64,000 bases of DNA, from positions 20,834,001-20,898,000 of the forward strand of contig CM059432.1 of NCBI GenBank assembly GCA_030390025.1, given 5' to 3'. Source of the DNA: Squalus acanthias. Lineage: Eukaryota. The position numbers and the translations under genes were made by a program. The notes beneath the pieces are model-generated. The model was not told where the DNA came from. It searched no databases and saw only the letters and a program-made list of their open reading frames with translations. Positions within the stretch are counted from its first letter, which is position 1, and each line of letters opens with the position of its first letter. Below, one piece after another: positions 26,797-39,484 of this stretch.

Positions 26797-29700
26797 ATGA
26801 GTCATAGAGTTATACAGCACAGAAAGAGGCCCTTCGGCCCATCGTGTCCGCGCCGGCCATCAAGCCCTGTCTATTCTAATCCCATTTTCCAGCACTTGGT
26901 CCGTAGCCTTGTATGCTATGGCGTTTCAAGTGCTCATCTAAATGCTTCTTGAATGTTGTGAGGGTTCCTGCCTCTACCACCCTTTCAGGCAGTGAGTTCC
27001 AGATTCCAACCACCCTCTGGGTGAAAAAGTTTTTCCTTAAATCCCCTCTAAACCTCCTGCCCCTTACCTTGAAACTATGCCCCCTGGTTATTGACCCCTC
27101 TACTAAGGGGAAAAGTTCCTTTCTATCTACCCTATCTATGCCCCTCATAATTTTGTACACCTCAATCAGGTCCCCCCTCAGCCTTCTCTGCTCTAAGGAA
27201 AACAACCCTAGCCTGTCCAGTCTCTCTTCATAGCTGAAGCGCTGCAGCCCAGGCAACATCCTGGTGAATCTCCTCTGCACCCTCTCCAATGCAATCACAT
27301 CCTTCCTATAGTGTGGCGACCAGAACTGCACACAGTATTCCAGCTGTGGACTAACTAGCGTTTTGTACAGCTCCATCATAACCTCCCTGCTCTTATATTC
27401 TATGCCTCGGCTAATGAAGGCAAGTATCCCATATGCCTTTTTAACCACCTTATCTACCTGTCCTGCTGCCTTCAGGGATCTATGTACATGCACACCAAGG
27501 TCCCTCTGATCCTCTGTCCTTCCTAGGGTCCTACCATTCATTGTGTATTCCCTTGCCTTGTTTGTCCTCCCAAAATGCATCACCTCACACTTTTCAGGGT
27601 TAAATTCCATTTGCCACTGTTCTGCCCATCTGACCAACCCGTCTATATCGTCCTGTAGCCTGAGGCTTCCTCCTCGCTATTTACCACCCCACCAATTTTC
27701 GTGTCATCTGCAAACTTACTGATCATACCTCCTACATTCATATCTAAATCATCAATGTACACTACAAACAGCAAAGGACCCAGCACCGATCCCTGTGGTA
27801 CACCTATGGACACAGGCTTCCAGTCACAAAAACAACCTTCGACCATCACCCTCTGCCTCCTGCCACTAAGCCAATTTTGGATCCAATGTGCCAAGTTGCC
27901 CTGGATCCCATGGGCTCTTACCTTCTTGACCAGTCTCCCATGTGGGACTTTGTCAAAAGCCTTACTGAAGTCCATGTAGACCACATCAACTGCACTACCC
28001 TCATCCACACATCTAGTCACCCCCTCGAAAAATTCAATCAAATTGGTCAGACATGATCTCCCCCTGACAAAGCCATGCTGACTATCCTTGATTAATCCTT
28101 GCCTCTCCAAGTGGAGACTAATTCTGTCCCTCAGAATTTTTTCCAATAATTTCCCTACCACTGATGTTAGGCTCACTGGCCTGTAATTCCCTGGTTTATC
28201 CCTACTACCCTTCTTGAATAATGGTACTACGTTAGCTGTTCTCCAGTCCTCTGGCACCTCCCCTGTGGCCAGAGAGGTTCTGAAAATTTGTGTCAGAGCC
28301 CCTGCAATCTCCTCCCTTGCCTCACACAGCAGCCTGGGATACATCTCGTCTGGGCCTGGGGATTTATCCACTTTTAAGCCTGCTAAAACCGCTAGTACCT
28401 CCTCCCTCTCAATACTAATTTGTTCAAGTATATCACAATCCCCCTGCCTGATTTCTATGCCTACATCCTTCTCCATAGTGAACACAGATGCAAAATATTC
28501 ATTTAAAACCCCACTTACATCTTCCGGCTCTACACACAGATTGCCACTTTGGTCCCGAATGGGCCCTACTCTTTCCCTGGTTATCCTCTTGCCCTTAATA
28601 TACTTATAAAACACCTTGGGATTTTCCTTTATTTTGCCCGCCAGTGTTATTTCATGCCCCCTCTTCGCTCTCCTAATTTATTTTTTAAGTACCCCCATGC
28701 ACTTTCTATACTCCTCTAGGGTTTCCACTGTTTTTAGTCCTTTGTATCTGCCAAAAGCCTCCCTTTTTTTCCTAATCCATTCTCGCATATCCCTTGACAT
28801 CCAGGGTTCCCTGGACTTGTTGGTCCCACCCTTGACCGTTTACGGGAACATGTTGCCGTTGTACTCTCTCTATTTCCTTTCTGAAAGACTCCCACTGCTC
28901 TGATGTGGATTTTCCTACAAGTAGCTGATCCCAGTCCACTTTGGCCAGATCCTGCCTTATCATATGAAAATCGGCCTTCCCCCAATTTAGAACCTTTATT
29001 TCCGGTCCATCTTTGTCCTTTTCCATGACTACCTTAAATCTCACCGAATTATGGTCACTGTCACCAAAATGCTCTCCTGCTGCCACTTCTACCACTTGCC
29101 CGGCTACATTCCCTAGAATTAGGTCCAGTACCGCCCCCTCTCTTGTAGGACTTTCTACATGCTGGTTCAAAAAGCTCTCCTGGATGCACTTTAAGAATTC
29201 CGCACCCTCTAAGCCTTTCACACTCTGACAATCCCAGTTAATATTGGGGAAGTTTAAATCCCCTACTATTATTACCCTATTATTTCTACACTTCTCTGAG
29301 ATTTATAGAAACATAGAATCATAGAAACATAGAAAATAGGTGCAGGAGTAGACCATTCGGTCCTTCGAGCCTGCACCGCCATTCAATGCGTTCATGGCTG
29401 AACATGCTACCTCAGTACCCCATTCCTGCTTTCTCGCCATACCCCTTGATCCCCCTAGTTGTGAGTATTATATCTAACTCCCTTTTGAATATATTTAGCG
29501 AACTGGCCTCAACAACCTTCTGTGGTAGAGAATTCCACAGATTCACCACTCTCTGGGTGAAGAAGTTCCTCCTCATCTCAGTCTTAAATGGCTTCCCCTT
29601 TATCTTAGACTGTGACCCCTGGTTTTAGTTTTCCCTAACATTGGAAACATTCTGCCCGCATCTAATTTGTCTAAACCAGTCAGGATTTTAAACGTCTCTA

Positions 29701-32700
29701 TAAGACCCCCCCTCATTCTTCTGAACTCCAGAGGATACAAGTTCAGTTGATCCAGTCTTTCTTGATATGTCAGTCTGGCCATCCCAGGAATCAATCTAGT
29801 GAACCTTCGTTGCACTCCCTCAATAGCAAGAATGTCCTTCCTCAAGTTAGGAGACCAAAACTGCACACAATACTCCAGGTGTGGCCTCACCAAGGCCCTG
29901 TACAACTGTAGCATCACCTCCCTACTCCTGTACTCAAATCCCCTTGCTATGAAGGCCATCATGCCATTTGCTTTCTTGACTGCCTGCTGCACTTGCCTTC
30001 CCACCTTCAGTGACTGATGTACCATGACGCCCAGGTCTCGTTGCACCTCCCCTTTCCCTAATCTGCCACCATTCAGGTAATAGTCTGCCTCCCTATTTTT
30101 ACCACCAAAGTGGATAACCTCACATTTATCCACATTGTACTTCATCTGCCATACATTTGCCCATTCACCCAACCTGTCCAAGTCACTCTGTAGCCTCCTA
30201 GCATCCTCCTCATTGTTCACACTGCCTCCCAATTTAGTGTCATCCGCAAATTTGGAGATATTACAATTAATCCCTTCGTCCAAATCATTAATATATAATG
30301 TAAACAGCTGGGGCCCCAGCACCGAACCCTGCGGTACCCCGCTGGTCACTGCCTGCCATTCTGAAAAGTACCCATTTACTCCTACTCTTTGTTTCCTGTG
30401 TGCCAACCAGTTCTCAATCCACGTCAACACATTACCCCCAATCCCATGTGCTTTAACTTTGCACACCAATCTCTTGTGTGGGACCTTGTCGAAGGCCTTC
30501 TGAAAGTCCAAATACACCACATCTACTGGTTCCCCCCCGTCCACCCTATTGGAAACATCCTCAAAAAATTCCAGAAGATTTGTCAAGCATGATTTCCCTA
30601 TCACAAATCCATGCTGACTTGGACCTATCATGTCGCCACTTTCCAAATGGTCTGTTATGACATCTTTAATAATTGATTCCATCATTTTACCCACCACCGA
30701 TGTCAGGCTGACCGGTTTATAATTCCCTGCTTTCTCCCTCCCTCCTTTTTTAAAAAGAGGGGTTACATTAGCCACCCTCCACTCCTTCGGAACTGATCCA
30801 GAGTCTAAGGAATGTTGGAAAATGATCGTCAATGCATCCACTATTTCCAAGGCCACCTCCTTAAGTACTCTGGGATGCAGACCATCAGGCCCTGGGGATT
30901 TATCAGCCTTCAGTCCCATCAATTTCCCCAACACCTTTTCCCGACTGATAAGGATTTCCCTCAGCTCCTCCCTCTTACCAGATCCTTTGATCTCTTTTAT
31001 TTCCGGAAGGTTGTTTGTGTCCTCCACAGTAAACACCGAACCAAAGTACTTGTTCAATTGATCTGCCATTTCTTTGTTCCCCATTATGACTTCCCCTGTT
31101 TCTGACTGCAGGGGACCTACGTTTGTTTTTACTAACCTCTTCTTTTACATATTTATAGAAGCTTTTGCAGTCCGTTTTAATGTTCTCCGCAAGCTTCCTT
31201 TCATATTTTATTTTCCCTGCCCTAATCAAACCCTTCGTCCTCCTCTGCTGAGTTTTAAAGTTCTCCCAGTCCCCGGGTTTGCTGCTACTTCTGGCCAATT
31301 TGTATGCCACTTCCTTGCTTTTAATACTATCCCTGATTTCCCTTGTTAGCCATGGTTGAGCCACCTTCCCTTTTTAATTTTTACGCCAGACAGGGATGTA
31401 CAATTGCTGTAGTTCATCCATGCGATCTCTATATGTCTGCCATTGCCCTTCCACTGATAACCCCTTAAATATCGCTTGCCAATCTAACCTCGCCAATTCA
31501 CGCCTCATACGCTCAAAGTTGCCCTTATTTAAGTTCTGGACCATGGTCTCTGAATTAACTGTTTCCTTCTCCATCCTAATGTAGAACTCCACCATACTAT
31601 GGTCACTCTTCCCCAAGGGGCCTCGCACCACAAGATTGCTGATTAGTCCTTCCTCATTACACACCACCCAGTCCAGGATGGCCTCCCCTCTAGTTGGTTC
31701 CTCAACATATTGGTTTAGGAAACCATCCCTTAAAAACTCCAGGAAATCCTCCTCCACCATATTGCTTCCAGTTTGAGTAGCCCAATCTATATGCATATTA
31801 AAGTCACCCATGATAACTGCTGCGCCTTTTTTGCATGCACCTCTGATTTCCTGTTTCATACCCTCCCCCACCTCACTACTACTGTTTGGAGGTCTGTACA
31901 CAACCCCCACTAACGTTTTCTGCCCTTTGGTGTTCTGCAGCTCAACCCATATTGATTCCACATCCTCCAAGCTAATGTCCTTCCTAGCTATTGCATTAAT
32001 CTCCTTTTTAATCAGCAATGCTACCCCACCCCCTTTTCCTTTTATTCTATCCTTCCTGAATGTTGAATACCCTGGATATTCAGTTCCCAGCCTTGATTGT
32101 TCTGGAGCCACGTCTCTGTAATCCCAATCACATCATATCCGTTAACATCAATTTGCACAGTCAATTCATCCACCTTATTACGGATACTCCTTGCATTAAG
32201 ACACAGAGCCTTTAGGCTTGTTTTATTAACACCCTTTGTCCTTTTAGACTTATGATTTAGTATGGCCCTTTGTGTTTCTTGCCTTTGTTTACTCGGATTT
32301 CCCTTATTGTTTCTCACCCTTCTAACATTTGCCTACATATCTGTTCCTCTATCTCCCCCTGACTGTTTGGGGACCTATAGTACACTCCCAGCAAAGTGCT
32401 TGCCCCCTTTTTGTTTTTAAGTTCTACCCATATGGCCTCATTAGAGGAACCTGCTAAGATATCATCCCTCCTTACAGCAGTAATTGACTCCTTGATTAAT
32501 ATTGCGACACCCCCTCCTCTTTTACACCCCCCTCTGTCTCGCCTGACGATTCTACACCCCGGAATATTGAGCTGCCAGTCCTGCACCTCCCTCAACCATG
32601 TCTCTGTGATAGCAACAATGTCATACTCCCATGTGTTCATCAACACCTTCAATTCATCTGCCTTGCTCGCAAGACTCCTTGCATTAAAATAAATGCCATC

Positions 32701-34060
32701 CAGCCTTGCCATACTCTCTTGTGCCATTACATATTTGCTCTGCCTTCCGGGCTGACTTGGTTTTTCCTCTATATTTGGCTGTGCATCACCCCCTACTATA
32801 GCTCCACTCCGTATCCCATCCCCCTGCCAAGTTAGTTTAAACCCCCCCCAACAGTACTCGCAAATCTCCCCTGCAAGGATGTTGGTCCCGTTCTGGTTCA
32901 GGTGCAACCCGTCTGACTTGTACAGGTCCCACCTTCCCCAGAAGCAGACCCAGTGATCCAGGAAACTAAAGCCCTCCCTCCTGCACCAACTCTTTAGCCA
33001 CGCATTCATCTGCTCTATCCTCCTATTCCTATACTCACTAGCACGTGGCACTGGGAGTAATCCAGAGATTACAACCTTTGTGGTCCTACTTTTTAATCTG
33101 CTACCTAGCTGCCTAAATTCTTGTTGCAGGACCTCATCCGTCTTTCTACCCATGTCATTGGTACCAATGTGAACCATGACCTCTGACTGTTCGCCCTCCC
33201 CTTTCAGAATGCCCTGCAGCCGTTCAGTGACATCCTTGACCCTGGCACCAGGGAGGCAACATACCATCCTGGGGTTACGTCTGCGGCCACAGAAACGACT
33301 ATCTGTTCCCCTTATAGAATCCCCTATCACTATTGCTCTCCCACTCTTTTTCCTCCCCTCCTGTGCAGCTGAGCCACTCGTAGTGCCACAGACTTGGCTC
33401 TTGCTGCATTCCCCTGAGAAACCATCTGCCCCATCAGTATCCAAAACTGAAAATCTGTCGGAGAGGGAGATGGACCCAGGGGACTTCTGCACTACCTTCC
33501 TAGTTCTTTTACTCTGTCTGGTGGTCACCCATTCCCTGTCTGCCTGTGCACTCTTTACCTGCGGTGTGACCACCTTGTTAAACATGCTATCCACGAAGAT
33601 CTCAGCTTCGTGGATGCTCCACAGTGACTCCAGCCGCAGCTCCAGCTCCGAAACGCGGATTTCGAGTAGCTGCAGCTGGAGACACTTCCTGCACATGTGT
33701 TCGCCCTGGACACCTAAAGTGTCCCTGACTTCCAACATAGCACAGGAGGAGCACTCCATGCTGCCGAGCTGCCCTGCTGTGTCCTACCCTTAATTTACTC
33801 CCTTTAAATGAAAGAATATTAAATACACTAGGGACCTTACTTCCCTTTAAACACTACTTACTCTAAACTAGAGACCTTACTTTTACTTTAATGACTGGAA
33901 TGTAGAAATACTGTAGAAATACTCACTGCTGGTTCTCTGTCCCCTCTTGTGCAGCTTTTTAGCTCCTGCTCTCCTGGAAGCTGACAAAGATGGAAAAAGA
34001 AAGGAACACCTCCCTCCCCGAACTCCCTCACTCACCAAACTCGCAGCTTAACACTCTTTG
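26797..34060 (-). mobile_element. Near full-length CR1 LINE (outer element A), split by a nested CR1 at 29305-32326
   Basis: ORF1 with CxxC...CxxC finger, Leu-rich coil and SGNH esterase motifs (IGDS, HIGTND, DGLHLN) from 33759; APE endonuclease (YFNARS, VAITETWL, GDSDHN); RT (PGPD, QHGF, DFSKAFDKV, PQGSVLGP, FADD); CR1 C-terminus (FFTQRVV) and short repeat tail near 26800; several frameshifts/stops; 5' end approximate. Confidence 0.93.
29305..32326 (-). mobile_element. 5'-truncated CR1 LINE (element B) nested in the endonuclease region of element A
   Basis: 8-bp-unit repeat tail (atagaaacatagaatcatagaaacatagaa) at 29305; APE and RT pieces (ORFs 32042-32317, 31374-32111, 30975-31364, 29600-31084); flanked by ATTT at 29301-29304 and 32327-32330; removing it restores ...EQICRQISEKCRNN of element A. 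Confidence 0.95.
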
Positions 34061-34975: not shown

Positions 34976-35624
34976 GTTAATAGTAATGAAGGATCAGGAT
35001 TCGGGATGTTGTTTAGGTTAAACTGTTGTGGAGACAACCCCATGAGTTCTGTTATGTTAAATGGGTAAGTACAGACATAGACGATTAAGTACTTTATTGA
35101 GCATGATGAACCTAATCCCAGATGTCTGATTTTTGGTTCTGAATCTTTACTTGTACACATCAAAAACAGATGATGAGATCTGTATGAATATGAAACCAGC
35201 ATAAGACGTTTCAAGGTCTAGAAAGTTTGTGAAGAAATTTGGGTTTGATTTAGGGAATTATTAATTACAGACAAGTTTCAAGCCTTTCCTAATAGCTTAG
35301 TGGGTAAATACACTACCTGAGCACTAATTCATAAATCAAGTAGGTGTCAATTTTGATCCCTGGCCTGATTTCAACAAGAGTGACAATGGTGCAGCGCAAT
35401 TGGCTTCTTTCAATGGGAGAGAGGAGGTTTCCACTCCTGATTTCTATCCAGTGGCCACCACTGAAAGTGCATGTCACGTGAGGACAGGTTCACCTGGTAA
35501 GTAGTTTGTTTCATTGCGATACGAAATTGCGACAGCAACAACTTGCATTTATGTCACGTCTTTAGCATAGTAAAATGACCTAAGCAGCTTCGCAGGAGTG
35601 TAATCAGACAAAAATGGACTCTGT

Positions 35625-38600
35625 TTTCAGAATCCTCAAAGGGGAGGGGGAACAATCACAAGTCGTGGTACACATCGGTACCAACGACATAGGTAGGAGA
35701 AGGGACGGGGATTTAAAACAGGAATTTAGGGAGCTAGGTTGGAAGCTGAGAGCCAGTACAAACCATGTTGTAATTTCTGGTTTGTTGCCGGTGCCACGTG
35801 CTAGCGAGTTGAGGAACAGGGAGAGAGTGCAGATAAACACGTGGCTGCAGGGATGGTGTAGCGGGGAGGGTTTCAGTTATGTGGATAATTGGAGCACATT
35901 CTGGGGAAGGTGGGACCTGTACAAACAGGACAGTTTGCACCTGAACCAGAGGGGCACCAATATCCTGGGAGGGAAATTTGCTACGGCTCTTCGGGGGGGT
36001 TTAAACTAATTTGTCAGGGGGATGGGAAAAAGGGCTGTAGTCCAGGAGCCAGTGGTGAGTGTAGGGAGGTACTGAGGAGGGTATCAAGGTCGCAGGAATG
36101 TACCGGCAGACAGGAAGATGGCTTGAAGTGTGTCTACTTCAATGCAAGGAGCATCCGGAATAAGGTAGGAGAACTTGGAGCGTGGATTGGTACTTGGGAC
36201 TACGATGTGGTGGCCATTACGGAGACATGGTTAGAACAGGGACAGGAATGGTTGTTGGAAGTTCCGGGGTATAGATGTTTCAGTAAGAGTAGGGAAGTTG
36301 GTAAGAAAGGTGGAGGAGTAGCATTGTTAATCAAGGATAGTTTAACAGCGGCAGAAAGGCAGTTCGAGGGGGATCTGCCGTCTGAGGTAATATGGGCTGA
36401 AGTTAGAAATAGGAAAGGAGTGGTCACGTTGTTAGGAGTTTTCTACAGGCCCCCAAATAGTAATAGAGATGTGGAGGAAGAAATTGCAAAGCAGATTATG
36501 AATAGGTGTGGACGTCACAGAGTAGTTGTCATGGGTGACTTCAACTTTCCAAATATTGATTGGAACCTTTATAGGTCAAACAGTTCGGATGGGATAGTTT
36601 TTGCACAGTGTGTGCAGGAGGGTTTCCTGACACAATATGTGGATAGGCCGACAAGAGCTGGGGCCACGTTGGATTTGGTACTGGGTAATGAACCGGGCCA
36701 AGTGTTTGATTTGTATGTGGGAGAGCACTTTGGAGATAGTGACCACAATTCGGTAACGTTCACTATTGCAATGGAGAGGGATAGGGCCATACGGCAGGGC
36801 AGGGTTTATAATTGGGGGAGGGGTAATTATGATGCGATTAGGCAAGAATTAGGGAGTATAAGATGGGAACAGAAACTATCAGGGAAAGGCACAAACGAAA
36901 AGTGGAGCTTTTTCATGGAGCAATTGCTGCGTGTCCTTGATAGGTATGTCCCTGTCAGGCAGGGAGGAAATGGCCGAGTGAGAGAACCATGGTTCACAAA
37001 AGAGGTTGAATGTCTAGTCAAGAGGAAAAAGGAAGCGTATGTAAGGATGAGAAAACAAGGTTCAGTTGGGTCGATTGAGGGGTACAAGGTAGCAAGGAAT
37101 GAGCTAAAAAAAAGAGCTTAGGAGAGCTAGGAGGGGGCATGAGAAGTCCTTGGCGGGTCGGATCAAGAAAAACCCCAAGGCCTTTTACTCTTATGTGAGA
37201 AATAAAAGAATGACCAGGGTGAGGGTAGGGCCGGTCAAGGACAGTAGTGGGAACTTGTGCATGGAGTCAGAAGAGACAAGAGAGGTGATGAATGAATACT
37301 TTTCGTCAGTGTTCACCGAGGAGAGGGGCCATGTTCTTGAGGATGAGAGTGTGATAAAGGTGGATAGGCTGGAGGTGGTAGATGTTCTGAGGGAAGATGT
37401 TTTAGCAATTTTGAAGAACCTGAGGGTCGATAAGTCCCCTGGGCCAGATGGGATATATCCTAGGATTCTTTGGGAGGCAAGGGAGGAGATTGCAGAGCCT
37501 CTGGCTTTGATCTTTGGGTCCTCACTGTCCACGGGAATGGTGCCAGAGGACTGGAGAGTGGCGAATGTTGTTCCTCTCTTCAAGAAAGGAAATAGGAATG
37601 ACCCTGGTAATTATAGGCCGGTTAGTCTTACTTCGGTGGTTGGTAAGATAATGGAAAAGGTCCTGAGGGATAGGATTTATGACCATTTGGAAAGGGGCAA
37701 CTTAATCAGGGATAGTCAACACGGATTCGTGAAGGGTAAGTCTTGCCTAACAAATTTGATTGAATTCTTTGAGGAGGTAACTAAGTGTGTAGATGAAGGT
37801 AGAGCAGTTGATGTCGTATACATGGATTTTAGTAAGGCGTTTGATAAGGTTCCCCATGGTCGGCTCATGAAGAAAGTAAGGAGTTGTGGGATAGAGGGAA
37901 ATTTGGCCGATTGGATAAGTAACTGGCTATCTCATAGAAGGCAGAGGGTGGTGGTGGATGGAACATTTTCGGACTGGAGACCAAGTACCAGCGGTGTGCC
38001 ACAGGGGTCGGTGCTGGGTCCTCTGCTGTTTGTGATTTTTATCAATGACTTGGAGGAGGGGACTGAAGGGTGGATCAGTAAATTTGCTGATGACACCAAG
38101 ATTGGTGGAGCAGTGGATGAGGTGGAGGGCTGTTGTAGGCTGCAAAGAGACATTGATAGGATGCAGAGCTGGGCCGAAAAATGGCAGATGGAATTTAACC
38201 CTGATAAGTGCGAGGTGATTCATTTTGGTAGGGCAAATTTGAATAAGGATTACAGGGTCAACGGCAGGGTTCTGAGGAACGTGGAGGAGCAGAGGGATCT
38301 GGGGGTTCATATTCACAGATCTCTGAAGGTTGCCACTCAAGTGGATAGAGCAGTAAAGAAGGCCTATGGTGTGTTGGCGTTTATTAACAGAGGGTTTGAG
38401 TTTAAGAACCGTGAGGTTATGCTGCAACTGTACAGGACCTTGGTGAGACCAAATTTGGAATATTGTGTGCAGTTCTGGTCACCTCACTATAGGAAGGACG
38501 TGGAAGCATTGGAAAGAGTGCAAAGGAGATTTACCAGGATGCTGCCTGGTTTGGGGGGGAGGTCTTATGAGGAAAGATTGAGGGAATTGGGGCTTTTCTC

Positions 38601-38997
38601 TTTAGAGCGGAGGAGGATGAGAGGCGACTTAATAGAGGTTTATAAGATGATGAGGGGGATAGATAGAGTGGATGTTCAGAGACTATTTCCTCGGGTAGAG
38701 GCAGCTGTTACAAGGGGGCATAACTATAAGGTGCATGGGGGGAGATATAGAAGGGATGTCCGAGGTAGATTCTTTACTCAGAGAGTGGTTGGGGTGTGGA
38801 ATGGACTGCCTGCTGTGATAGTGGAGTCGGACACTTTAGGAACTTTCAAGCGGTTATTGGATAAGCACATGGAGCACACCAGAGTGATAGGGAGTGTGAT
38901 AGCTTGATCTTGGTCTCGGACAATGCTCGGCACAACATCGAGGGCCGAAGGGCCTGTACTGTGCTGTACTGTTCTATGTTCTATGTTCTATGTTCTA
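35625..38997 (+). mobile_element. 5'-truncated CR1 LINE (element C): esterase end of ORF1 plus near-intact ORF2
   Basis: ORF1 remnant ending at TAA 36007-36009 (HIGTND, DSLHLN); ORF2 APE (to 37121) and RT (37150-38907) joined by one frameshift at the A-run near 37106-37113; (TGTTCTA)n tail; inserted into an older L2/SINE-tail fragment. Confidence 0.95.
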
Positions 38998-39484
38998 TTA
39001 GGACAGGTGACTAAAAGCTTGGTCAAAGTGGAAGAGACATATGATCCAGAGGCAAGTACAAATAGTATGCTTTAACAATACAACATCATGACAAATTTTA
39101 AGAACAGGATAAGGCCATTAGGATTAATAAGCAAGTCCCTTTTGTTGACAGATTGAGTCCACCTACCTATCTTCTCATTATCCCCCTTAGTCCAATTTTT
39201 CTCCGGAAAGACAACCAATTATTTCTTCAACTCACTCATACTGAGCACTTCAGTGATCTTCTCTGGTAACTTATTTCATAACTCTATAACCTTTTGGGTA
39301 AAAGAGTTCCACCTACCTTACTTTCGTGTTCCCAACTTCATAATTTTAGCCTTTGCATTCTGATAGTTAAATCCTTCACCATAGCAAGCAATTTGCCCGG
39401 AAGATATTTGCTCATTCCCATCATAATCTTAAAAATGTATTGTTTTATTTATATTTATATTCCTTTGTTTTCTTTTCCAATAAG

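What the first reader, a model, noticed from the sequence alone, without database searches (positions are those of the whole stretch)
35990..36040. Candidate programmed -1 ribosomal frameshift joining CR1 ORF1 and ORF2 (U_UUA_AAC plus stop)
Seen: ORF1 ends GGG GGT TTA AAC TAA, so the heptamer T TTA AAC (36000-36006) is in exact X_XXY_YYZ register. The -1 frame (TTT AAA CTA ATT TGT CAG GGG GAT GGG) is the open endonuclease/RT frame. That frame has no Met between the junction and the first APE motifs (YFNARS, VAITETWL); the first Met is at AKQIM, deep inside the domain. Known: UUUAAAC is the coronavirus-type -1 slippery site, whereas LINE ORF2 is usually thought to be made by reinitiation. Inference: these CR1s may make a gag-pol-like ORF1(esterase)-ORF2 fusion by frameshifting, perhaps stimulated by the adjacent stop codon and the G-rich CAGGGGGATGGG block. 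I could not identify a clear pseudoknot and cannot say whether this has been reported.
Basis: partly seen in the sequence, partly recalled or inferred. Interest (0 to 1): 0.82.

Follow-up and report, generated by a model that had tools for sequence, protein, structure and literature searches.

The report
Frameshift signal in CR1 jumping genes
In a widespread family of animal jumping genes (CR1 LINEs), the first gene ends in a virus-style slippery sequence, a stop codon and a G-run at a fixed distance, all kept letter for letter from sharks to bird-like and non-vertebrate-like relatives, so the second gene is likely made when ribosomes slip back one base.

Summary
Observation confirmed. T TTA AAC (36000-36006) plus TAA ends an esterase ORF1. 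The -1 frame is open from the heptamer into the endonuclease, and its first AUG is codon 167.

The site is conserved as nucleotides. In 22 representatives (28-69% ORF1 identity to this family) the terminal Leu is TTA in 22/22, Asn is AAC in 20/20, and the base before is T in 21/22. Control Leu, Asn and Asp columns vary freely. Linkers have 0 stops in 914 codons in the -1 frame, against 62 and 96 in the other frames. A G-run starts 11 nt after the heptamer in 19/25.

Distant ORF1 proteins end X-L-N (never E/K/Q/M/W, 0/37) or mostly Q-G-N, the pattern expected if U_UUA_AAC is swapped for G_GGA_AAC.

Against: no shared hairpin; an in-frame AUG precedes the endonuclease in 10/17 representatives, 2 nt after the stop in 6/12 bird-like loci; nothing tested at the bench.

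Best reading: programmed -1 frameshifting with a linear G-rich stimulator (about 0.8). Ten literature searches found no CR1 report, but the original CR1 papers were unreadable. This scan noted the idea before on other DNA (e1-8041403, e1-9568866).

The parts
35616..38998 (+). 5'-truncated copy of a young CR1-type LINE (family A here)
   Evidence: 99.3% identical over 3379 nt to a natural copy with both frames open; 3' tail of TGTTCTA-type repeats at about 38970-38998
35616..36009 (+). 3' part of ORF1 (SGNH esterase), ending G-G-L-N-stop
   Evidence: full ORF1 is 308 aa in longer copies
36000..36006 (+). slippery heptamer U_UUA_AAC in ORF1 register (G_GGU_UUA lies in register one codon earlier, 35997-36003)
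   Evidence: TTA 22/22, AAC 20/20, preceding T 21/22 across representatives
36007..36009 (+). ORF1 stop codon directly after the heptamer
   Evidence: TAG 16, TAA 5, AAG 1 of 22 representatives; no TGA
36017..36026 (+). G5 run after a 10-nt spacer, followed by a second short G tract; candidate linear stimulator
   Evidence: G at the five positions in 21, 21, 19, 21, 19 of 21; longest run starts at nt 11 in 19 of 25; not in a shared hairpin
36006..36134 (+). -1-frame linker between shift site and endonuclease, without AUG or stop
   Evidence: linkers across families 111-264 nt, 79% polar/small residues
36135..37121 (+). ORF2 endonuclease part; first in-frame ATG at 36498 lies after the N, E and Y motifs
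37108..38907 (+). ORF2 reverse-transcriptase part; this copy is broken in an A-run near 37106
32820..32841 (-). same heptamer+stop+G5 junction in a second, different CR1 family (B) in the window

Best explanation
The CR1 ORF1/ORF2 junction is likely a programmed -1 ribosomal frameshift site that makes an ORF1-ORF2 fusion protein. Shown: an in-register U_UUA_AAC, an immediate stop, a -1 frame open from that point into the endonuclease, no AUG before codon 167 in this family, and a G5 run after a 10-nt spacer, all conserved as nucleotides across very divergent families. Inferred: most ribosomes stop and release ORF1p; a minority slip back one base and would make a fusion of about 1270 aa (ORF1-linker-APE-RT), which would set the ORF1p:ORF2p ratio and draw the polymerase into the ORF1p particle as Gag-Pol does. 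More weakly inferred: the G-run is a linear 3' stimulator, likely a protein-binding site or an element acting at the mRNA entry channel, because it has fixed spacing and no shared fold.
For: (1) Codon fixation: terminal Leu TTA 22/22 (TTA is 11% of Leu codons in the same stretches), Asn AAC 20/20 (47%), base before T 21/22 (24%) under six different amino acids. Control columns vary: Leu modal share 0.31-0.81, Asn 11/10, Asp 9/9. (2) -1 linkers: 0 stops in 914 codons against 62 and 96 in the other frames (17 in-phase representatives); 531 of these codons lie before any in-frame Met, where the other frames hold 35 and 45 stops. (3) The -1 frame is closed by a stop 1-6 codons upstream in 20 of 26 representatives and has an upstream Met in 1 of 26, so it must be entered at the heptamer. 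(4) No AUG before the endonuclease motif in 7 of 17 representatives from sharks, a bird-like locus and two non-vertebrate-clade families; 14 of 14 long family-A copies. (5) Protein imprint: before terminal L-N, residues that cannot end in T (E,K,Q,M,W) occur 0 of 37 times, expected 7.2 (P 3e-4; 1 of 126 before dereplication); before terminal G-N they occur 9 of 11 times. This fits G_GGA_AAC; K-N and F-F ends also occur. [quoted passage not shown] (6) G-run: third bases of -1 codons 6 and 7 are G in 21/21 each although codon 6 encodes Q, K, R, W, G, E or M, and GGG is 31% of ORF2 Gly codons. PRRSV uses a linear motif after a 10-nt spacer (PMC4937337 passages).
Against: No experiment. No stable or shared hairpin downstream: z-scores +0.5 and +1.7 for this copy; only 1 of 9 folds beat shuffles (L090, z -2.7) and its stem does not use the G-run. 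No common long-range partner, no three-tier quadruplex motif in any of 25, no Rfam match. In-frame Met before the endonuclease motif in 10 of 17 representatives; family B has one just ahead of the domain; 6 of 12 bird-like loci have AUG, and 3 more GUG, 2 nt after the stop. The linker shows little amino-acid constraint (differences 31/34/42 by codon position). Representatives are related and several were chosen for intact frames: 2 were out of phase, 7 had no recognisable endonuclease motif, and in old family H only 3 of 10 copies with a motif were in phase. No DNA was obtained for the G-N, K-N or F-F classes, so the heptamer swap is inferred from protein only; many distant ORF1s end in none of these patterns.
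Confidence: 0.82

Rival explanations
1. Termination-reinitiation: ribosomes stop at the ORF1 stop and restart ORF2 at a nearby AUG or near-cognate codon, helped by the G-rich element, as described for L1 and SART1; the heptamer would be part of that signal or a relic.
For: AUG 2 nt after the stop in 6 of 12 bird-like loci and GUG in 3. In-frame Met in 10 of 17 linkers. AUG-independent initiation is favoured for L1 ORF2 (PMC5009743 passage); SART1 uses a stop-start overlap with a downstream structure (PMC3708506 passage). Family A has ATT, CTG and TTG in frame in the linker.
Against: The same codon is TGT, TGG, AGA, AAT, AAA, AGT, GGG, TCG or GCG in shark and non-vertebrate-clade families. Linker Met frequency is 19 in 914 codons (my count), about what chance gives. 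Reinitiation does not predict an X_XXY_YYZ rule upstream of the stop or the L-N versus Q-G-N split. It may still operate in some bird families alongside or instead of frameshifting.
Confidence: 0.12
2. Protein-level or other constraint: L-N-stop in ORF1 and F-K-L in the -1 frame are kept as amino acids, or the motif serves at DNA or RNA level (promoter, splice or processing site).
For: L307 and N308 are invariant in a 35-protein alignment. If both L-N and F-K-L were selected they would fix six of the seven bases (reasoning from the code).
Against: F-K could only be translated by ribosomes already in the -1 frame, which is closed 1-6 codons upstream in 20 of 26. Distant relatives end G-N, K-N or F-F. 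The seventh base is free under this model yet AAC is 20/20.
Confidence: 0.04
3. Transcriptional or reverse-transcriptase slippage in the G-run before the heptamer yields in-frame RNAs, so no ribosomal shift is needed.
For: Families A and B have a G7-G8 run before the heptamer, and some family-B genomic copies are in-frame fusions (6 of 40 anchors read GGG TTT AAA CTA at the expected stop).
Against: Most families have no run there (GCT, ACT, TCT, TGT, TAT, TTT). In-frame copies may be later mutations or assembly errors.
Confidence: 0.02

Closest known systems
Dictyostelium TRE5-A and TRE3-A non-LTR retrotransposons
   Same: Two-ORF APE-RT LINE-type elements said to need a -1 frameshift for ORF2 (PMC5911963, figure-legend passage; lead from e1-8041403).
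   Different: Different host and ORF1. I saw only the review sentence, not the primary evidence or a signal. Here the signal is defined and traced across animal CR1 families.
Coronavirus 1a/1b and retroviral gag-pol -1 frameshift sites
   Same: U_UUA_AAC in register; structural or upstream ORF fused to a polymerase ORF; G_UU(A) variant as in equine arteritis virus seen in L086 (PMC5009743 passages).
   Different: No hairpin or pseudoknot stem found 5-9 nt downstream; no protease encoded to cut the fusion (RT and APE only); host is a non-viral LINE.
PRRSV nsp2 -2/-1 frameshift and Semliki Forest virus 6K/TF (unstructured 3' stimulators)
   Same: Conserved linear motif at a fixed spacer (10 nt in PRRSV) with no obvious structure (PMC4937337; PMC5009743).
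   Different: Motif is a G-run, not CCCANCUCC; no trans-acting protein identified.
Mammalian L1 and silkworm SART1 ORF2 translation (reinitiation)
   Same: Bicistronic LINE RNA that must express ORF2 behind ORF1.
   Different: Those have a spacer or a stop-start overlap; here the frames overlap at a slippery heptamer and many families have no usable AUG.
CR1 subgroup 7, ORF1 type IVB (zinc finger/leucine zipper + esterase) of Metcalfe and Casane 2014
   Same: Esterase ORF1 with APE-RT ORF2.
   Different: That paper has no occurrence of 'frameshift' and calls the type exclusively vertebrate (PMC4120745 passages); related ORF1s here also fall outside the vertebrate-named cluster, hosts unknown.

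Membership tests
canonical eukaryotic -1 PRF signal | X_XXY_YYZ heptamer in zero-frame register | tested here: met
   19 of 22 representatives exact U_UUA_AAC, one G_UUA_AAC, two altered copies
canonical eukaryotic -1 PRF signal | -1 ORF open from the site and not enterable upstream | tested here: met
   0 stops in 914 codons; upstream stop within 6 codons in 20 of 26
canonical eukaryotic -1 PRF signal | conservation of the site beyond amino-acid need | tested here: met
   synonymous fixation against control columns; protein-end imprint
canonical eukaryotic -1 PRF signal | stem-loop or pseudoknot 5-9 nt downstream | tested here: not met
   no shared local hairpin, no common long-range partner; no pseudoknot-specific program was run
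canonical eukaryotic -1 PRF signal | measured transframe product | not testable with these tools
   needs reporter, MS or ribosome profiling
PRF with a linear 3' stimulator (PRRSV, SFV type) | conserved unstructured motif at fixed spacing | tested here: met
   G-run starts at nt 11 in 19 of 25, nt 8-10 in 5, nt 13 in 1
PRF with a linear 3' stimulator (PRRSV, SFV type) | trans-acting protein or rRNA contact | not testable with these tools
   no candidate tested
termination-reinitiation LINE (SART1, L1 type) | start codon at or near the ORF1 stop | tested here: inconclusive
   absent in this family and all shark families; AUG 2 nt after the stop in 6 of 12 bird-like loci
CR1 clade with esterase ORF1 | SGNH esterase ORF1, APE and RT ORF2, short tandem-repeat 3' tail | tested here: met
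CR1 clade with esterase ORF1 | RT phylogeny places it in CR1 rather than L2 | not tested

The most novel reading that the evidence does not exclude
The whole esterase-ORF1 branch of CR1, from non-vertebrate hosts to sharks, amphibians, lizards and birds, makes its reverse transcriptase as a Gag-Pol-like fusion by -1 frameshifting, has exchanged one canonical slippery heptamer for another in different lineages, and uses an undescribed stimulator: a single-stranded G5 run 10 nt behind the site, bound by a protein (possibly ORF1p itself, giving feedback control).
Probability: 0.35. Interest if true: 0.9.

Novelty: new variant of a known kind. Interest (0 to 1): 0.78.

Why it matters
How LINEs translate ORF2 is a long-standing question, and the vertebrate model is reinitiation as in L1. 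CR1 is the main repeat of birds (11.8% of chicken chromosomes, PMC11835228 passage) and abundant in this shark-like genome. If true, a major LINE clade uses the retroviral solution, its ORF2 has been annotated from the wrong start (here a Met-started ORF2 would lack the first 166 codons and part of the endonuclease), and screens for intact elements that require an AUG miss active copies. The 30-nt signal is directly testable, and the G-run would be a new kind of frameshift stimulator.

Tried and rejected
Local hairpin: nine folds, one better than shuffles and not involving the G-run. Long-range partner of the G-run: best duplexes fall at unrelated places in 13 stretches, many outside the element. 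G-quadruplex: G4Hunter scores are high relative to ORF2, but no three-tier motif in 25 and a two-tier motif in only about three fifths; not excluded. Rfam: none. A TURBS-like UGGGA was considered (motif recalled): it lies downstream of the stop and is absent in bird-like and non-vertebrate-clade loci.

Expression: no RNA holder listed. Contigs of four runs cover the stretch; the five joints listed are single contigs without GT..AG ends, and 110 differences were not shown, so nothing is concluded.

Natural fused ORFs: 4 longer proteins found. P0108 looks like a copy-level fusion; P0110 and P0111 have the esterase behind the RT and look like chimeras. Not used as support.

Linker dN/dS-like test: weak. 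Tree (quick method): L-N needs 2 changes and G-N 3, with many open nodes, so the number of independent swaps is small and unsure.

Papers not held: Haas 1997, Kajikawa 1997, Kapitonov and Jurka 2003, Alisch 2006, Kojima 2005, and an id recalled for Burch 1993. Repbase and Dfam notes were not available. No supplements were read.

Full report
Observation. The sequence at 35992-36009 reads CGG GGG GGT TTA AAC TAA in the ORF1 frame, so T_TTA_AAC (36000-36006) is in register with the stop directly behind it. The -1 frame is open from 35889 to 37121 and its first ATG is at 36498. Pfam gives an SGNH esterase for ORF1 and endonuclease and RT domains for ORF2; the endonuclease also matches L1 endonuclease structures weakly. 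A protein started at 36498 would lack the N, E and Y motifs of the domain. The heptamer alone is common (23 in the window, 14 expected). Heptamer+stop+7 nt+G5 occurs only at the two CR1 junctions in the window (pattern written after the fact).

The family. The window lies in a 3.7-Gb genome whose ORF1 relatives are named from sharks and rays. The window copy spans about 35616-38998, is 5'-truncated and is broken in an A-run near 37106. The family is young: 40 of 40 scored matches are about 100% identical, and all 30 loci have the same junction. Of 14 longer stretches, picked for a long ORF1 or ORF2, 4 have both frames open (308 aa and 968 codons), and all 14 have their first ORF2-frame Met at codon 167. 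The missing AUG is therefore not decay of one copy.

Other families. Searches with ORF1 pieces, four of which left out the last residues, brought other shark families, labelled B to H here (parsed in 16, 29, 35, 64). A metagenome scan gave 37 loci, most with bird-like ORF1 ends; 12 bird-like junctions were used, and the rest ended early or were broken. One more distant locus, L086, came from that scan. Host-like DNA in prokaryote assemblies gave two further families outside the vertebrate-named cluster; their hosts are unknown.

Synonymous fixation. I took 22 natural copies as representatives (28-69% ORF1 identity to family A; two planned ones were missed by the pattern and added only in later calls). 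The terminal Leu is TTA in 22 of 22, Asn is AAC in 20 of 20 (two copies altered), and the preceding base is T in 21 of 22 under six different amino acids. Background shares are 11%, 47% and 24%. Conserved control columns in the same alignment vary: Leu modal share 0.31-0.81, Asn 11 AAT/10 AAC, Asp 9/9, Cys 13/9. The exception, L086, reads G_UUA_AAC; the review lists G_UU(A) for equine arteritis virus. The copies are related, so these counts are not independent trials, but the control columns show that synonymous sites have had time to change.

The -1 frame. In 17 representatives with the endonuclease motif in phase, linkers of 111-264 nt hold 0 stops in 914 codons, against 62 and 96 in the other frames. 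Two representatives were out of phase and 7 had no recognisable motif. In old family H only 3 of 10 copies with a motif were in phase, with length variation in A and G runs. 531 codons lie before any in-frame Met. Upstream, the -1 frame is closed within 6 codons in 20 of 26 and has a Met in 1 of 26. In family A it is open for 37 codons and holds near-cognate codons, so an upstream start is not excluded there. The linker is 79% polar or small residues, with little amino-acid constraint, as a flexible tether would be.

AUG. Seven of 17 have no in-frame Met before the motif; ten have one. Most positions are scattered, but family B has a Met just before the domain, and 6 of 12 bird-like loci have AUG and 3 GUG two bases after the stop. 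This keeps reinitiation open, above all for birds.

Protein imprint. ORF1 relatives named from sharks, rays, frogs, an eel, a sturgeon, lizards, a snake and a penguin end X-L-N. Among 84 non-redundant tails from 300 proteins, 37 end L-N and none has E, K, Q, M or W before it (7.2 expected; internal X-L-N has 15 of 70). Eleven end G-N, nine of them Q-G-N. This is what X_XXY_YYZ predicts for U_UUA_AAC and G_GGA_AAC. K-N and F-F ends also occur. [quoted passage not shown] Limits: no DNA for those classes, 36 tails end otherwise, and a quick tree puts G-N in one region with 2-3 changes. One well-supported group that includes a teleost-named protein has no such ending.

The G-run. Eleven to fifteen bases after the heptamer, G is found in 21, 21, 19, 21 and 19 of 21. 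Two of these positions are third bases, and codon 6 encodes seven different residues. The run starts at base 11 in 19 of 25. It is in no shared hairpin, has no common distant partner, forms no three-tier quadruplex motif and matches no Rfam family. PRRSV uses a linear motif after a 10-nt spacer with protein activators (PMC4937337, passages), and Semliki Forest virus an unstructured 3' element (PMC5009743, passages). That the G-run works this way is inference.

Mechanism. Most ribosomes would stop and release ORF1p. Some would slip back one base on U_UUA_AAC and continue at CUA, giving a fusion of about 1270 residues. I put this at 0.82, reinitiation at 0.12, other constraints at 0.04 and polymerase slippage at 0.02.

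Literature. Ten full-text searches found no report of frameshifting in CR1. I read passages, not whole texts, of PMC11835228, PMC5009743 (CR1 0 occurrences in the first 300,000 characters held), PMC4120745, PMC3708506, bioRxiv 10.1101/788562 (62), PMC4937337, PMC5911963 and PMC5006619. PMC5911963 states that Dictyostelium TRE5-A and TRE3-A need a -1 frameshift, so the idea is not new for non-LTR elements. The original CR1 papers were not held, and Repbase and Dfam could not be checked; an earlier proposal there is quite possible. This scan reached the same idea before at another place in this genome (e1-8041403) and in another genome (e1-9568866). These are unchecked notes, not independent support.

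Verdict. Real, conserved, and most likely a programmed -1 frameshift with a non-canonical stimulator. New variant of a known kind; interest 0.78.

Noticed in passing
window 32314-33783 (-): Second CR1 family (B): this copy has one extra base upstream of the heptamer, so ORF1 runs in frame into ORF2 (489-aa ORF). Several other family-B copies are in-frame fusions through G-run length changes; mutation or assembly error not distinguished.
   Followed up: partly
window 35997-36003: G_GGU_UUA lies in register one codon before U_UUA_AAC in families A, B, C and G, and U_UUU_UUA in L222: possible tandem shift sites.
   Followed up: no
L086:680-700: G_UUA_AAC variant with the G-run three bases closer; ORF2 open to the contig end; in-frame Met at codon 29.
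   Followed up: partly
all representatives, stop codon: The stop is TAG or TAA, not TGA, in 21 of 22 (one copy AAG), so the first codon after the shift is CUA; one C-family copy (L128) has TGA.
   Followed up: no
L218-L220, G001-G003: Prokaryote assemblies carry animal-type LINE DNA; G003 (17.8 Mb) holds at least 21 ORF1 matches, i.e. host contamination.
   Followed up: partly
P0110, P0111: Predicted proteins with an esterase ORF1 behind an RT; likely chimeras of adjacent elements. Esterase ORF1s outside the vertebrate-named cluster sit badly with the 'exclusively vertebrate' statement in PMC4120745.
   Followed up: partly
P0006: A shark-type CR1 ORF1 is annotated as a Pseudomonas aeruginosa SGNH hydrolase; likely a contaminated record.
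   Followed up: no
window 26876-33783 (-): Cluster of at least three nested or adjacent CR1-type fragments.
   Followed up: no
L262, L265, L267, L272, about 1166 nt upstream of the heptamer: Shared 5' end of family A with short repeats in the 5' UTR (several self-matches).
   Followed up: no
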